Shown here: positions 2,564 to 27,249 of the stretch, one piece after another
Position numbering within the stretch: position 1 is the first letter of the stretch
Layout: each line of letters begins with the position of its first letter
Virus record (IMG/VR): IMGVR_UViG_2684622670_000009
Coordinates: 20,476-84,475 of that record
Length of the DNA: 64,000 nt
Reading direction: 5' to 3' (one strand)
Source: a virus
Taxonomy: Duplodnaviria > Heunggongvirae > Uroviricota > Caudoviricetes
The notes under the pieces: model-generated
The model's database searches: none
What the model was told of the DNA's origin: nothing
What the model saw: the letters and a program-made list of their open reading frames with translations, nothing else
Position numbers and translations under genes: made by a program

Positions 2564-3016
2564 TCAGATACGTGCGGATGTGGCATTACCGTAATGACGG
2601 TGCTGACGGGCCACCTTATTGAAAAGTTGACGCGCCATTACCCAAGGCTGGTGCTCCCGGCGTTCCTTTTCGTCCTGCGTCATATAGAGTTCGTTCTGGA
2701 GTTTTTCATCAAACCGGCGCGGAGCGCGGCTACGGCGAAAGAATTCAGGATTCAGAGAGTGGATCTGAAATCTACGTGGGCGTGTACTGTCATCAATCAA
2801 AACAGACGAATACTTAGACACAGCGATAGCCTTTAAGCGCAGATAAACATCGCGCTTATCGACATCCAGATGCGGGTATTCCTTTTCAAGAATTGCTGCG
2901 AGTTCTTTCGCTGATAGAAGAGATTTAGTGCGGATCATGTAATCCGCAATCTCGTACGATGTTATTCGTGAGTGATTTATTTCCATGAAGTGGCGTCCCT
3001 GCCAGTTAAGTAACAT
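2564..3016 (-). CDS. lpa: Late promoter activator Lpa (gp10)
   Basis: 150-aa ORF between pdcB and pacA, as in P1. A C1 operator lies just upstream. Confidence 0.8.
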   Translation of the reverse strand: MLLNWQGRHFMEINHSRITSYEIADYMIRTKSLLSAKELAAILEKEYPHLDVDKRDVYLRLKAIAVSKYSSVLIDDSTRPRRFQIHSLNPEFFRRSRAPRRFDEKLQNELYMTQDEKERREHQPWVMARQLFNKVARQHRHYGNATSARI

Positions 3017-3086
3017 CCTGTCACCTACTGATTAGCCCATGTCAACTAATCAACGTGGAATATAATACCCTCGATTAAAGAAATAG

Positions 3087-3103
3087 CAATACATTAGAGC
3101 AAT
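3087..3103 (-). promoter_or_regulatory. C1 repressor operator upstream of lpa
   Basis: Minus strand ATTGCTCTAATGTATTG. The first 11 nt are identical to the C1 operator consensus ATTGCTCTAATAAATTT. Confidence 0.6.
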
Positions 3104-3104
3104 T

Positions 3105-4148
3105 TTATCTAACGCTCGACGAGTGACTTGTGATAGCGCCGACTCCAAGCGCGTAATCAAAGAACAATCGTTGATGCATCGCCAGCCTACCGTGCGTCTT
3201 CTCCCAATTATCGCGGTCACGCTCAATATCACGCTGGCATGACTGGCACAGAGGAATTGCGTAAATGTCATGCGCGCATAATCGACTATGACGAACGATA
3301 TAAGGCGTAATGTGAGCGCCAGCTCCCGCCGCTCCACACCCACAGCATGGACGGGAAGCAACAAAGTCCATGTACTCAGGTAATTTTAGCGATTGCAGTT
3401 TTGGTATTTTGAAATGCGCCATGCCAGGGTCGGAGTCAACATCCACAGGGCATACTTTTGCACGCATCAGCGCGGCGCGTTCTTCCATCATCTGAACATA
3501 TGCTGTAGCGCGATCGTCATACGGGCGAATATCCGCCTCTTTCAGAGGTCCGCTATCCTGCGTTGCGGCTTTCATCTTATTTATTGATATACGGCAAACT
3601 TCTTCCGGCATCAGGTGCATCATGTTGCGCATGAAAGCCCACCAGCACAGTTCCTGAATACTTAAATCATGGCCATCTGAAAGCCCCATTTCCTGACGGG
3701 CGACATCCAGTATCCAGTTAACGCGATTATTATGCAGCGTTTCTTTCAGCTCATTAAAACCACGCATCCGGTAATGGTTATCGTGATGCCAGCACAACAA
3801 CACCGCGCTATTGTCTCGTTCTGCGTGGACAATATGGTTGTCACACCAGCTACGATCTGCGGCCTGGCATTGCCCCTCTTTCCTGCGCAACCACGCCAAC
3901 AGCGAGTCAATTCCACCAATACGGCGAAACAGTTCATCGCTGTTAAAAAACGGCTGCAACGCCTCATTTGTTGCCATGGTTTGCTCGGTAACAACGAGGC
4001 CGTCTTCCATGTGCTCGATTAACTCACGCGGCACCGGCTCCATAATAAATTTACGGCCAGCCTCCACCAGCTTTCTGACCTCCTGATCCACTTTGAACGT
4101 GGCGAGGCCAAGCTCTTTCTGTACAAAGGGAGTAATTACGGCTTTCAC
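3105..4148 (-). CDS. pdcB: Cys/His-rich protein at the P1 pdcB (post-doc) position
   Basis: 347-aa ORF with CCGCG and CQSC clusters. Assigned by synteny doc-pdcA-pdcB-lpa. Confidence 0.6.
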
Positions 4149-24760: not shown

Positions 24761-24836
24761 TGGTGACCCCTACCGGACTTGAACCGGTGACCGTGCGATT
24801 ATGAGTCGCCAGCTCTAACCACTGAGCTAAAGGGCC
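24761..24836 (-). tRNA. trnI: tRNA-Ile2 type (anticodon CAU, ileX-like)
   Basis: GGCCCTTTAGCTCAGTGGTTAGAGCTGGCGACTCATAATCGCACGGTCACCGGTTCAAGTCCGGTAGGGGTCACCA. Full cloverleaf, encoded CCA, close to E. coli ileX. Confidence 0.85.
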
Positions 24837-25545: not shown

Positions 25546-25694
25546 TGGTTATCCCTCAATAAAAGTGACATATTTATTAGATTGCGGTGCCGGGTGCCTC
25601 CCGGTGACGTTAACCAGTTAACAATTAACGCCGGAATGTTTAATCATCAAGGAGGATTGTTTTAACTGTTCCGCGTGCGCTTAGCCGAATTCAC

Positions 25695-25806
25695 CGCAAT
25701 GGTAAGAGCACTTGGCTGGCTGGGCGGCGATGACGCCTGTACGCATTTGGTGATCCGGTTCTGCTTCCGGCATTCGCTTAATTAGCCAAATACTCTTAAC
25801 GTTGCG
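25695..25806 (-). repeat. Long-hairpin module D (degenerate copy), immediately 3' of tRNA-Ser
   Basis: 5' arm CGCAACGTTAAGAGTATTTGG pairs with 3' arm CCAAGTGCTCTTACCATTGCG. The arms are homologous to modules A-C. An internal CCGG-AAGCAGAA-CCGG hairpin is present. Confidence 0.45.
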
Positions 25807-25807
25807 C

Positions 25808-25894
25808 TGGTGGAGAGTAATGGAATCGAACCATCATCGCTTGCGCAATGGGACGGTTTTCAAGACCGCTTGAGCGCCATACTCCCTACTCTCC
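25808..25894 (-). tRNA. tRNA-Ser (anticodon UGA), type II with a long variable arm
   Basis: 87 nt. Acceptor GGAGAGT/ACTCTCC; anticodon arm GCGGT-CTTGAAA-ACCGT; variable arm ATTGC-GCAA-GCGAT; T arm GATGG-TTCGATT-CCATT; encoded CCA. Confidence 0.8.
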
Positions 25895-26047
25895 AATGAT
25901 TGTGGTGGTCGGTGCTGATCTCCGACTGCGCCTCTTTTTTTCATAGCCCATAAGGCCGGTCAGTGCGCTTGATGACTGAGGCATCGATATTTACTACGCC
26001 GCCTCGTTGCCATAGGGCGGACTTGCGCGCCAGCAACGCGCATTCAC

Positions 26048-26134
26048 CACAACGGAAAGAGCATTCACGTCTCGCATCGCGGGAAAAAGCCCACGGTAGA
26101 GAGTCGAACTCTACAAATGCTCTTACCTGTTGTG
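26048..26134 (-). repeat. Long-hairpin module A (87 nt)
   Basis: CACAACAGGTAAGAGCATT...AATGCTCTTTCCGTTGTG. Contains a T-arm-like GTAGAG-TTCGACT-CTCTAC hairpin. Confidence 0.55.
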
Positions 26135-26262
26135 TTGTGATGACCGGTGCTGATCTCCGGCTTGCGGTTATTTCAGACTCTCACGGGCGTTTAATTGCCC
26201 CGCCGGACAGCTCTTTTCCGCAATAGCTGCAATGTCTTTCGCGCATCAGCCTGCGCATTCAT

Positions 26263-26349
26263 CACAACGGTAAGGGTACTTCGGAGGGATTCGAACCCTC
26301 TGCCAAGCTCGGCGATCTCCGACGTCGCAAAATACCCTTACCTGTTGTG
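26263..26349 (-). repeat. Long-hairpin module B (87 nt), immediately 3' of the tRNA-like gene
   Basis: CACAACAGGTAAGGGTATTTTG...CGAAGTACCCTTACCGTTGTG, a stem of about 21 bp with one bulged A. Contains GAGGG-TTCGAAT-CCCTC. Confidence 0.55.
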
Positions 26350-26350
26350 C

Positions 26351-26483
26351 TGGTGCCGGTTAACGGATTCGAACCGCTGACCTCTGGCCTAACATCGAAT
26401 CGTTGTCATTTGACCAGCAAGGCTGTCTACCGAAGTAGAAACGATGCTTTGGCTCTCGTGCTCTCCCACTGAGCTAAACCGGC
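26351..26483 (-). ncRNA. tRNA-like gene (Thr-type scaffold) with a ~57-nt insert replacing the anticodon arm
   Basis: GCCGGTT-TA-GCTC-AGTGGGA-GAGC-A...AGGTC-AGCGG-TTCGAAT-CCGTT-AACCGGC-A-CCA. Total length is 133 nt. The insert holds a TCTAC-TTCG-GTAGA hairpin and CATCG/CGATG pairing. I could not fold a canonical 7-nt anticodon loop. Confidence 0.5.
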
Positions 26484-26485
26484 AT

Positions 26486-26561
26486 TGGCGATGGTGGGTG
26501 GATTCGAACCACCGACCAGTTAGTTAACAGCCAACTGCTCTAACCGCTGAGCTACACCATC
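26486..26561 (-). tRNA. trnA: tRNA-Asn (anticodon GUU)
   Basis: GATGGTGTAGCTCAGCGGTTAGAGCAGTTGGCTGTTAACTAACTGGTCGGTGGTTCGAATCCACCCACCATCGCCA. Perfect cloverleaf. Confidence 0.9.
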
Positions 26562-26764
26562 ACTTGCCGGGTACGTCTCCGGCGAGGGCTTCCACCTCCG
26601 TATGCTTTTCGGCGCACCGCGCCCTGGCTGCAATTCGGTAACAGGGGATGCATAACCCTGGCTTCCAGCGTGATTAGCGCTTTCAGCATGACGGGATATA
26701 CCCGTAAATTCGTGGAACTGTACCCAAAGTGCTGTTAAGCACCGCTGTTACGCTGAAAAGAAGA

Positions 26765-26845
26765 CGCAACAGGAAAGGACGCTGACCAACAGATGGCCCC
26801 TTCTCGTTCATCTGGTTAATCACACCAGCGCCCTTACCTGTTGTG
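26765..26845 (-). repeat. Long-hairpin module C (81 nt)
   Basis: CACAACAGGTAAGGGCGCTG...CAGCGTCCTTTCCTGTTGCG. The variable stem part covaries relative to modules A and B. Confidence 0.5.
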
Positions 26846-27026
26846 CCTCCCCGTTCCCTAATACACAGACGGGGACACTCTGCGGTCGATTTTTTGACGG
26901 GGGACGACTCATACCCCGTGGCGTCTGGCTTCTTAGGCCGCAGCCATCATCAGATCATCGTTTGCATTTACTTTAATGGTCAGTTTCTAAACCGCCGCAA
27001 AGTCGCTAACCATGACGAAAACCCTG

Positions 27027-27051
27027 AAAAAACGCCCACCCGAAGATGGGC
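27027..27051 (-). terminator. Strong rho-independent terminator
   Basis: Minus strand GCCCATC-TTCG-GGTGGGC followed by GTTTTTT. Confidence 0.8.
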
Positions 27052-27213
27052 AAACAGGATGTAAGCTCGTTACGCATTTCGGTATTGCCACTTAGGCGTA
27101 TGGTCAACCTGGCAACTCGGCGTCATGAGGGGGAAGGAGTCACTACCCCGCCATACTTGCCGCCGCGCCTGTCGCGGCTAACAGCTAAATCGCTCTATAA
27201 ATCACGATTCATT
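27052..27213 (-). ncRNA. Candidate C1-regulated structured RNA (~185 nt including the terminator)
   Basis: Lies between a predicted sigma70 promoter and the terminator. Several GC-rich hairpins (GCCGCG/CGCGGC, TTGCCA/TGGCAA). Only tiny ORFs without SD. Confidence 0.4.
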
Positions 27214-27219
27214 GAAACC

Positions 27220-27249
27220 ATATTACACTAATAAATTTATTAGAGCAAT
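27220..27249 (-). promoter_or_regulatory. Bivalent C1 operator overlapping a sigma70 promoter
   Basis: Perfect ATTGCTCTAATAAATTT on the minus strand (27249-27233). An inverted, overlapping ATTACACTAATAAATTT sits on the plus strand (27222-27238). Promoter: -35 TTGCTC (27248-27243), 17-nt spacer, -10 TAATAT (27225-27220). Confidence 0.7.

What the first reader, a model, noticed from the sequence alone, without database searches (positions are those of the whole stretch)
26351..26483. tRNA-like gene with canonical acceptor, D and T arms but a ~57-nt structured insert instead of an anticodon arm
Two nt downstream of tRNA-Asn lies GCCGGTT-TA-GCTC-AGTGGGA-GAGC ... AGGTC-AGCGG-TTCGAAT-CCGTT-AACCGGC-A-CCA. 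This sits where P1 has trnT, as I recall. The element is 133 nt long. The central part (about 26376-26440) forms its own helices: GCC/GGC, CATCG/CGATG, and a TCTAC-UUCG-GTAGA hairpin. I could not fold a 5-bp stem with a 7-nt loop presenting a Thr anticodon. It could be a disrupted tRNA, a tRNA with an unusual intron, or a tRNA-scaffolded small RNA processed by RNase P/Z.
Basis: seen in the sequence. Interest (0 to 1): 0.65.

Follow-up and report, generated by a model that had tools for sequence, protein, structure and literature searches.

The report
Phage tRNA mimic with four-way-junction head
A gene shaped like a tRNA, but carrying a conserved four-helix knob where the anticodon arm should be, sits in this P1-like phage-plasmid and in many unrelated phages; it is a real, selected RNA that cannot decode codons, it is in no RNA family library, and its function is unknown.

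Summary
On the minus strand, 26483→26351, two bases after tRNA-Asn, lies a 133-nt gene with canonical tRNA acceptor, D and T arms and a CCA end. The 17-nt anticodon arm of P1 trnT is replaced by about 74 nt.

It is not a decayed tRNA and not an intron. I found 20 distinct versions. They occur in P1-like and SSU5-like phage-plasmids, phages related to E. coli phage Jgk1, jumbo-phage contigs, a 171-kb phage contig, lambdoid prophages and an Orrella MAG.

Acceptor, T, P1, P3 and P4 stems keep pairing through compensatory changes. A core is invariant: AUCGUU, the UCUAC/GUAGA stem and AACGAYYCGRU. The arm is an irregular purine-rich helix, a hinge, a closing stem and three short hairpins that form a four-way junction. 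No conserved anticodon loop exists.

Rfam 15 has no matching family, and PGAP labels the copies "tRNA-OTHER".

Best reading: a natural tRNA scaffold. It would be matured and stabilised like a tRNA, and would present a conserved head to an unknown partner, possibly as a decoy for a tRNA-binding factor. The structure is well supported. The function is inferred.

The parts
26351..26483 (-). Whole tRNA-like gene (133 nt, including the encoded CCA)
   Evidence: Sequence. Covariance model R1 hit at exactly 26351-26483(-), 147.7 bits. Homologous copies are annotated tRNA-OTHER by PGAP.
26477..26483 (-). Acceptor stem, 5' strand GCCGGTT. It pairs with 26355-26361 (AACCGGC).
   Evidence: All 7 pairs show changes on both sides across the family; 98.5% of cells are paired.
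26460..26476 (-). U8-A9 and the D arm (GCTC-AGTGGGA-GAGC), with A14, G15, G18, G19 and A21 in place
   Evidence: D stem is 100% paired, with one compensatory GTTC/GAAC variant (L234).
26451..26458 (-). Basal irregular helix, 5' strand CGAGAGCC. From the tRNA body outward it forms a C-G closing pair, then G·A, A·G, G·A and A·C mismatches, then 3 Watson-Crick pairs. It pairs with 26382-26389 (GGCCAGAG).
   Evidence: The inner 3 pairs covary (GC/CG). The purine-purine positions are non-standard in 16-17 of 19 sequences and become G·U, G·U, A-U in L234.
26442..26450 (-). A-rich hinge (AAA) and P1 5' strand GCATCG. P1 pairs with 26392-26397 (CGATGT).
   Evidence: P1 is 100% paired. Pair column 43/97 occurs as CG, GC, AU, GU and UA.
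26426..26441 (-). J1/2 (UU) and hairpin P2 (TCTAC-TTCG-GTAGA)
   Evidence: The stem is invariant in all versions found, even when the search pattern left it free. The loop varies: UUCG, CUCG, GAAA, UCCG, UUAG, GUAA.
26415..26425 (-). Hairpin P3 (CAGC-CTT-GCTG)
   Evidence: 3 of 4 pairs have compensatory variants (CGC/GCG, CUGC/GCAG, GCC/GGC, CCC/GGG). The loop is 3-4 nt and variable.
26405..26414 (-). Hairpin P4 (GTC-AAAT-GAC)
   Evidence: Compensatory GGC/GCC and GG/CC variants; variable loop.
26392..26404 (-). J4/1 (AACGATT) and P1 3' strand CGATGT. Together they form the invariant stretch AACGAYYCGRU, which offers two alternative partners for the 5' AUCGUU.
26379..26391 (-). Hinge 3' side (TA), basal helix 3' strand GGCCAGAG, and the rest of the variable loop (GTC, including the G46 and C48 equivalents)
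26362..26378 (-). T arm AGCGG-TTCGAAT-CCGTT
   Evidence: 3 of 5 pairs covary. The GGTTCRA..CC motif is conserved, apart from GGTTTGA in L056.
26351..26361 (-). Acceptor 3' strand AACCGGC, discriminator A, encoded CCA
   Evidence: The discriminator varies among lineages (A, G, U, C) and CCA is encoded in only some of them.
26486..26561 (-). tRNA-Asn(GUU), immediately upstream in the same transcript
27222..27249 (.). Overlapping pair of P1 C1-repressor operator sites (Oban/Op72 of P1), about 660 nt upstream. They place the element in the C1-controlled ban operon.
   Evidence: (0 and 2 mismatches to the operator consensus) and the P1 annotation.

Best explanation
The element is a member of a phage-borne family of non-decoding tRNA mimics. 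It is a complete tRNA body (acceptor, D and T arms, plus the nucleotides that build the L-shape) whose anticodon arm has been replaced by a long arm. That arm consists of an 8-position irregular purine-rich helix, a variable A-rich hinge, a 6-7-bp stem P1, and a four-way junction carrying three short hairpins (P2-P4).

How it most likely works:
1. It is transcribed with the neighbouring tRNAs; in this window that means from the C1-repressed ban promoter.
2. It is cut out by RNase P at the 5' end and by the tRNA 3'-end enzymes, so it accumulates as a stable 133-nt RNA with a CCA end.
3. It has no anticodon loop and no conserved aminoacylation identity, so it cannot act in decoding.
4. The tRNA body serves as processing signal, stabiliser and possibly address label. 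The invariant junction core (AUCGUU, the UCUAC/GUAGA stem, AACGAYYCGRU) is the working part and binds a partner.
5. My preferred guess for the partner is a host or defence factor that normally handles tRNA, so the RNA would act as a decoy or sponge.

Shown here: gene structure, family, covariation, absence of an anticodon arm, genomic contexts. Inferred: transcription, processing, stability, lack of charging, partner binding and decoy function.
For: - **The tRNA body is under selection.** Acceptor (7 of 7 pairs) and T stem (3 of 5 pairs) change on both sides while staying paired. U8, A14, G15, G18-G19, A21, the G46/C48 equivalents and the GGTTCRA T-loop are kept.
- **The arm is a selected structure.** RNAalifold recovers the same fold on its own. 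90.4% of cells are paired, against 75% in shuffles and 28-42% in slid controls. 21 pairs carry double changes; covariation score is 0.409 against 0.113.
- **Loops vary, stems persist.** P3 and P4 stems are swapped for other complementary sequences in divergent members. All three hairpin loops vary in sequence, and the P3 and P4 loops also in length.
- **There is no conserved anticodon arm**.
- **The core is conserved far beyond its surroundings.** Jgk1 and L229 flanks are about 77-84% identical where alignable, yet the roughly 45-nt core is identical.
- **It occurs in unrelated phage types**, with no shared neighbouring protein gene. This is the pattern of an autonomous accessory RNA gene.
- **A C1 operator pair lies upstream**, as in the P1 ban operon.
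- **In P1/SSU5 relatives it replaces a functional tRNA-Thr in an otherwise identical scaffold**. The tRNA body was therefore kept while decoding was given up.
Against: - There are no expression, processing or binding data of any kind.
- The decoy idea rests only on analogy and on the accessory-gene distribution.
- The invariance of a plain helix (P2) and of both alternative P1 registers fits a catalytic or switching RNA at least as well as a passive protein-binding site.
- The family is rare: 1 of 50,697 phage records, 11 of 72,556 plasmids, 6 of 5,426 E. coli genomes.
- All members were retrieved with patterns that fixed parts of the core, so the apparent invariance is partly ascertainment. 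Two scans with complementary free regions, a scan with P2 left free and a covariance-model hit to a divergent member reduce this concern but do not remove it.
Confidence: 0.55

Rival explanations
1. The head is an active RNA device, either a small ribozyme or a ligand- or temperature-sensing switch, mounted on a tRNA body. The two mutually exclusive pairings of AUCGUU would be its two states: with AACGAU, giving a perfect four-way junction, or with the downstream CGAU, giving P1 plus a 7-nt single strand.
For: Both registers are invariant and nearly equal in energy. Model A is the minimum-energy fold for the window module, L248 and L234; the other register is the minimum for L142 and L253. Invariance of sequences that serve two pairings is typical of switches. 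About 30 nt are invariant even in divergent members.
Against: There is no match to any Rfam ribozyme or riboswitch. I saw no hammerhead, twister, pistol or hatchet core motif when reading the sequence; that was a check by eye from memory, not a model search beyond Rfam. There is no expression platform, because the element is a free-standing gene rather than a leader. Covariation supports only the outer P1 pairs, which belong to one register.
Confidence: 0.15
2. It is a carrier for a base-pairing small RNA. The tRNA body gives RNase P/E processing and stability, and a single-stranded part of the head (J4/1, AACGAUU) pairs with a host or phage transcript.
For: The element sits in a transcript packed with small-RNA-like units: a dicF-like region upstream (annotated in P1) and STnc100/PasD-like units downstream. 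The conserved single strand AACGAYY exists in the model A fold.
Against: The only candidate seed is 5-7 nt. The hosts of the carrier phages are diverse, so a common mRNA target is unlikely. The window holds no significant complementary site: 11 matches with up to 3 mismatches against 6.75 expected. A seed function does not explain the conserved helices.
Confidence: 0.12
3. It is a tRNA gene with an intron. The insert is spliced out and a decoding tRNA results.
For: tRNAscan-based PGAP annotation accepts it as a tRNA of undetermined type. ARAGORN with introns allowed can force a call in some members.
Against: The forced calls differ between lineages (Ser-cga, Val-gac, His-gtg, none), use stems with 2 mismatches, and place the intron at non-canonical sites. 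The flanks of the insert (CGAGAGCC / GGCCAGAG) cannot form an anticodon stem. The insert is 57 nt, whereas bacterial tRNA introns are group I introns of a few hundred nt (established knowledge), and there is no Rfam intron hit. The structure that covaries is the insert itself joined to the tRNA body.
Confidence: 0.05
4. It is a tRNA-Thr pseudogene disrupted by insertion of unrelated or mobile DNA, with no function. A variant of this rival is a DNA-level site such as an integrase attachment site.
For: Close relatives (P1, P7, D6, Cyrano) carry an intact trnT at the same place with the same acceptor and T arms. In several prophage contigs the element lies within 0.05-1.8 kb of a contig end.
Against: The same insert sits at the same place in at least 10 different tRNA-like scaffolds, and every copy found lies in such a scaffold. 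RNA-level compensatory changes occur in the scaffold and in P1, P3 and P4. Hairpin loops vary in length, as in RNA hairpins. Two scans of one genome per bacterial species gave a single MAG hit, so it is not a host attachment gene.
Confidence: 0.03

Closest known systems
Engineered 'tRNA scaffold' for recombinant RNA (Ponchon & Dardel design; cited from my own knowledge)
   Same: A tRNA body with the anticodon stem-loop replaced by a structured RNA payload. In that design the body gives RNase P and 3'-end processing and stability in E. coli.
   Different: This one is natural, conserved across phages, and has an invariant payload. Its processing and stability have not been measured.
YrlA / bacterial Y RNA-like RNAs (Rfam RF02553; PMC4201824)
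   Same: A non-decoding RNA with a tRNA-like D/T/acceptor module joined to a long irregular helix. Also reported in phages.
   Different: YrlA is circularly permuted relative to a tRNA: its ends lie in the long helix and its acceptor is closed by a loop. Here the acceptor is open and the long arm is closed by a four-way junction. The Rfam score is 21.4 bits against a gathering score of 69, and that match spans the T arm of tRNA-Asn and the D arm of the element, not the element itself. No Ro60/Rsr link is known for these phages.
Phage T4 species 1 and species 2 stable RNAs (rnaC, rnaD)
   Same: Stable RNAs of about 120-140 nt and unknown function, encoded in a phage tRNA cluster. rnaC contains a T-arm-like hairpin.
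   Different: No sequence or model similarity. R1 listed only the T4 tRNAs in that locus, although 15 lowest-scoring rows of that output were not shown. They do not have the same head.
Bacillus cereus tRNA-Other (pseudo-tRNA with a regulatory role; PMC3399842)
   Same: Annotated as tRNA-Other, does not function in translation, and has a cellular effect independent of decoding.
   Different: It is a chromosomal, tRNA-sized molecule with an anticodon arm. It has no inserted module and is not homologous.
tmRNA tRNA-like domain
   Same: An acceptor/T-arm mimic whose anticodon-arm position continues into a long irregular helix.
   Different: The element has no reading frame with a conserved tag, no pseudoknots and an intact D arm. 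ARAGORN finds no tmRNA. The Rfam tmRNA hits in the region are noise and lie elsewhere.

Membership tests
Canonical tRNA (Rfam RF00005) | 7-bp acceptor stem, D arm and T arm with the GTTCRA loop, and the tertiary-interaction nucleotides | tested here: met
   all three arms are paired and covary; U8, A14, G15, G18-G19, A21, the C48 equivalent and the T-loop are conserved.
Canonical tRNA (Rfam RF00005) | 5-bp anticodon stem with a 7-nt loop (U33, anticodon, purine 37) | tested here: not met
   No call by ARAGORN or by RF00005 at E≤10. The flanks CGAGAGCC/GGCCAGAG form an irregular helix that leads into the head.
Intron-containing tRNA | Removing one contiguous segment leaves a canonical anticodon arm of the same isotype in all relatives | tested here: not met
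   ARAGORN -i gives Ser-cga, Val-gac, His-gtg or nothing, with mismatched stems.
Intron-containing tRNA | A recognisable self-splicing (group I) core, or a bulge-helix-bulge motif together with a splicing endonuclease in the host | tested here: not met
   The insert is 57 nt and there is no Rfam intron or ribozyme hit. The bulge-helix-bulge motif and the endonuclease were not modelled explicitly; that proteobacteria lack such an endonuclease is from my own knowledge.
tRNA pseudogene | Neutral decay: no conservation of the disrupting sequence and no compensatory changes | tested here: not met
   20 distinct versions, of which 19 were aligned; 21 pairs with double changes; invariant core.
YrlA / Y RNA-like (RF02553) | Match to the family model at the gathering score; permuted tRNA-like module plus a Ro60-binding stem formed by the RNA ends | tested here: not met
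   21.4 bits against 69, spanning two neighbouring genes. The topology differs.
tmRNA | tRNA-like domain plus a tag reading frame and pseudoknots | tested here: not met
   ARAGORN finds no tmRNA. A possible frame in the window copy (GCC AAA GCA ... UAG, read by eye) shifts in L229, which has one extra base.
tRNA-scaffolded / tRNA-mimic non-coding RNA (functional class, not a sequence family) | A tRNA-shaped body that is a substrate of RNase P and the 3'-end enzymes, giving a stable non-decoding RNA | not testable with these tools
   The shape and the absence of an anticodon are shown. Processing and stability need experiments.

The most novel reading that the evidence does not exclude
This is an undescribed class of phage RNA: a natural tRNA scaffold that carries an invariant, two-register four-way-junction head. 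It has been passed among unrelated phages (P1-like and SSU5-like phage-plasmids, Jgk1-like phages, jumbo phages, lambdoid phages). It acts as a decoy or inhibitor of a tRNA-recognising host or defence factor, or as a small catalytic or switching RNA. In the P1/SSU5 lineage it arose by a cassette-like swap of the anticodon arm of tRNA-Thr.
Probability: 0.3. Interest if true: 0.8.

Novelty: new variant of a known kind. Interest (0 to 1): 0.62.

Why it matters
- **Counter-defence.** Phage tRNA genes are now seen as counter-defence tools as well as codon-usage aids (for example bioRxiv 10.1101/2023.03.15.532788). A conserved phage RNA that keeps the whole tRNA body but gives up the anticodon would be a purely RNA-based mimic with a different job. 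It would be a new candidate for anti-defence or host take-over.
- **Annotation.** "tRNA-OTHER" calls and over-long tRNA-like genes in phage tRNA arrays can be real structured RNAs rather than junk. Several unrelated examples turned up in passing.
- **Structural biology.** About 30-45 invariant nucleotides around a four-way junction, with two competing registers, make a compact and tractable target for structural and biochemical work.
- **A natural precedent.** Nature appears to have used the same design that RNA engineers use as the tRNA scaffold.

Tried and rejected
- **Rfam.** Gathering mode on the whole window, E≤10 on 24.5-27.2 kb and E≤10 on the insert alone. Only noise came back: YrlA at 21 bits across two genes, and CRISPR-DR26 at 12 bits.
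- **Intron reading.** ARAGORN -i gave inconsistent calls.
- **Short or junction-based patterns.** The 14-mer GAGCCAAAGCATCG and the pattern GCTGGTCAA..GACAACGA mostly hit coding DNA by chance. GAGCNCGAGAGCCAAAGC gave 6 chance hits. The locus L254 from the last scan is a chance coding hit.
- **First genome scan.** Nothing found.
- **Conserved neighbouring protein.** All-against-all comparison of ORFs around the element in every lineage found only phage-lineage synteny (Jgk1, L229 and L252; L142 and L247) and spurious ORFs across the RNA itself.
- **Canonical tRNA twin of each scaffold.** Found only for the P1/SSU5 lineage, where it is trnT.
- **Host rRNA or other chromosomal mimicry.** blastn with 11-nt words against 5,426 E. 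coli genomes hit only plasmid copies.
- **Complementary target in the window.** At chance level.
- **T4 rnaC/rnaD as homologues.** No similarity.
- **K-turn reading of the basal purine loop.** Considered because GGC-CA-GA / GA-GCC resembles Kt-7 as I recall it. I did not prefer it: the bulge would be 2 nt, and L234 replaces the mismatches with in-register G·U, G·U, A-U pairs.
- **tmRNA-like tag frame.** Not conserved.
- **Literature.** Seven full-text searches found no description of this element.

Full report
**What the window is**

The window is a P1-like phage-plasmid.
- It carries the C4 antisense RNA and its a1/b1 targets.
- It has twelve C1-operator-like sites where 0.4 are expected by chance.
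- The element is 100% identical to copies on IncY plasmids of Escherichia albertii.
- The tRNA genes are on the minus strand: Asn(GUU) at 26486-26561, Ser(UGA) at 25808-25894, and a CAU tRNA at 24761-24836.

Read on the minus strand, tRNA-Asn is followed after two bases by a 133-nt gene at 26483→26351. Its parts are:
- GCCGGTT-TA-GCTC-AGTGGGA-GAGC-A
- a 77-nt arm
- GTC-AGCGG-TTCGAAT-CCGTT-AACCGGC-A-CCA

P1, P7, D6, RCS47, JL22 and the SSU5-like phage Cyrano align at about 95% identity on both sides of the arm and have a normal tRNA-Thr(UGU) there. The acceptor stem of the window element is identical to that of Cyrano trnT. So a tRNA-Thr gene lost its anticodon arm (CCTGC-CTTGTAA-GCAGG) and the start of its variable loop, and carries about 74 nt in their place.

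Default ARAGORN and the Rfam tRNA model do not call it. PGAP annotates the E. coli plasmid copies as "tRNA-OTHER", 133 nt long.

**It is a family, not an accident**

BLAST and pattern scans recovered 20 distinct versions:
- P1-like plasmids and proviruses (the window, L007, L131, L132, L136).
- SSU5-like phage-plasmids of E. coli and Salmonella (L004-L006, L056, L137, L240).
- E. coli phage Jgk1 and its relatives L229/L239 and L252+L153. I suspect these are N4-like, because L153 holds a 2,434-aa reading frame that runs to the end of the locus; I did not test that.
- Jumbo-phage contigs of 135-369 kb, and one 866-kb metagenome contig (L174, L182, L189, L237, L238, L242, L244, L245).
- A 171-kb phage contig with 18 tRNAs (L250).
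- Contigs of about 40-137 kb (L234/235/243, L142).
- Lambdoid enterobacterial prophages (L247-L251).
- A short metagenome contig (L241).
- A MAG of Orrella sp. (L253).

A covariance model built from 11 of these versions scores 19 members at 86.6-148.6 bits. About 290 ordinary tRNAs in 734 kb score 54 bits or less. The model also found the divergent member L142 before any pattern did.

The family is rare: 1 of 50,697 phage records, 11 of 72,556 plasmids, and 6 of 5,426 complete E. coli genomes, always on plasmids.

**Structure**

RNAalifold run on the model-guided alignment returns the cloverleaf body plus the arm I had drawn by hand. Counts on the 19 distinct aligned sequences:

| Measure | Observed | Controls |
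|---|---|---|
| Cells forming standard pairs | 90.4% | 75.0% in shuffles; 28-42% with partners slid |
| Pairs with changes on both sides | 21 | 14.7 in shuffles |
| Covariation score | 0.409 | 0.113 in shuffles |

For each of these measures, none of the 500 shuffles reached the observed value.

Per helix (unless stated):

| Helix | Result |
|---|---|
| Acceptor | 7 of 7 pairs with double changes |
| T stem | 3 of 5 pairs with double changes |
| D stem | One compensatory variant |
| P1 | One pair seen as CG, GC, AU, GU and UA |
| P3 | 3 of 4 pairs with double changes |
| P4 | 1 of 3 pairs with double changes |
| P2 (UCUAC/GUAGA) | Never varies; its tetraloop does (UUCG, CUCG, GAAA, UCCG, UUAG, GUAA) |

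The basal helix has three covarying Watson-Crick pairs. Going outward from these toward the tRNA body come a mismatch, G·A, A·G, R·A and a closing C-G. In L234 three of those non-standard positions become G·U, G·U and A-U, which fixes the register.

The alignment was fitted to the model, so the counts lean toward it. However, a plain MAFFT alignment of the first 11 sequences gave the same picture.

**The invariant core and two registers**

Three pieces are the same in all versions: (R)AUCGUU, the P2 stem, and AACGAYYCGRU.

Part of this is ascertainment, because patterns fixed parts of the core. Four checks reduce the concern:
- A scan with P2 free and the rest fixed and a scan with P2 fixed and the rest free returned the same loci.
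- A scan with P2, P3 and P4 all free added only a chance hit.
- Flanks of Jgk1 and L229 are only 77-84% identical, yet their cores are identical.

The 5' AUCGUU can pair in two ways:
- with the distal CGAU, giving P1 plus a 7-nt J4/1. This is the consensus fold, and the minimum-energy fold of the window module, L248 and L234.
- with AACGAU, giving a perfect four-way junction. This is the minimum-energy fold of L142 and L253.

Covariation supports only the outer P1 pairs. The shared part cannot be tested because it never varies.

**What it is not**

- **Not an intron-bearing tRNA.** Forced calls are inconsistent between lineages.
- **Not a pseudogene.** The covariation argues against decay.
- **Not a tmRNA or YrlA**.
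- **Not any Rfam 15 family**.
- **Not an rRNA or chromosomal mimic** at the level of 11-nt words.
- **No conserved charging identity.** The acceptor sequence and the discriminator differ among lineages, so no aminoacylation identity set is conserved. That ThrRS needs the anticodon is from my own knowledge.

**Context**

- In this window a pair of C1 operators identical in layout to P1 Oban lies at 27222-27249. The element should therefore be made from the C1-repressed ban promoter, together with tRNA-Asn, the small-RNA-like units, tRNA-Ser, tciA-C and the CAU tRNA.
- In jumbo phages, Jgk1-like phages and the 171-kb contig, it lies in or beside tRNA arrays.
- In lambdoid prophages, L142, L241 and the Orrella contig, no other tRNA lies in the stretch I hold.
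- In L248 it is downstream of, and in the same orientation as, an S24 CI-type repressor and a P63C-domain ORF.
- No protein gene travels with it.

**Interpretation**

The tRNA body is kept by selection although decoding is impossible. It must therefore be needed for something else. The simplest reading is maturation by RNase P and the 3'-end enzymes, stability, and perhaps recognition by a tRNA-binding partner. The head is the functional part.

I favour a decoy or sponge for a tRNA-handling host or defence factor. Three things point that way: the element behaves like an exchangeable accessory gene across unrelated phages, it replaces a dispensable tRNA in P1/SSU5 relatives, and phage tRNAs are already known to counter tRNA-targeting defences (bioRxiv 10.1101/2023.03.15.532788). 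This last step is inference. A switch or ribozyme in the head, or a base-pairing payload, remain open.

Literature searches found no description of the element.

**Verdict**

The structure is well supported and the function is unknown. Interest is moderate to high.

Noticed in passing
window 25580-26350 and about 26600-26860, minus strand: Three to four tandem units related to the prophage small RNA STnc100/PasD. The Rfam RF02076 hit is at 25583-25698 (50.3 bits), and repeat families D1, D2 and D5 mark the other units. Each unit is closed by a stem GTTGTGRTGA...TCAYCACAAC. In P1 the equivalent stretch is annotated as the plp and upl CDS on the opposite strand. About 70 nt (about 26200-26269) are 97% identical to Stx and lambdoid phages (PasD/STnc100 relation from bioRxiv 10.64898/2026.05.13.724894).
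   Followed up: partly
window about 26262-26345 and about 26065-26130, minus strand: Long hairpins (ACAACAGGTAAGGGTA ... TACCCTTACCGTTGT) lie between the STnc100-like units. Each encloses a T-arm-like hairpin (GAGGG-TTCGAAT-CCCTC, and GTAGAG-TTCGAC-TCTCTAC). There is a weak mascRNA-like Rfam hit at 26277-26326 (18 bits, E 2.7). These may be further tRNA-derived processing signals.
   Followed up: no
L189 1895-2001, L237 1846-1952, L174 677-785; L186 9405-9545; L147 6263-6377; L002 1698-1787: Other over-long tRNA-like genes (90-141 nt) in phage tRNA arrays that ARAGORN misses. They have acceptor, D and T arms, with different and mutually unrelated inserts in the anticodon-arm position. In the jumbo contigs one sits just upstream of the element. 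tRNA bodies carrying foreign heads may be a wider phenomenon.
   Followed up: partly
window 25808-25894 (tRNA-Ser UGA) and the Asn/element/Ser block: P1 itself has no tRNA-Ser here. The SSU5-like phage Cyrano has Asn-Thr-Ser in a row, and SSU5-like plasmids have Asn-(Tyr)-element-Ser. The tRNA block seems to be shared by recombination between P1-like and SSU5-like phage-plasmids.
   Followed up: partly
window 27033-27058, minus strand: A terminator-like hairpin with a T run lies between the ban promoter/operator and tRNA-Asn. P1 annotates a dicF-like region in this same interval, but I did not align the two.
   Followed up: no
L002 (Jgk1) 2997-3130 versus L229 1017-1151: These are two related phages (neighbouring proteins 54-95% identical). 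Their elements differ at 4 of 7 acceptor base pairs, all compensated, while the T stem and the head core are identical. The acceptor stem seems to turn over faster than its surroundings.
   Followed up: partly
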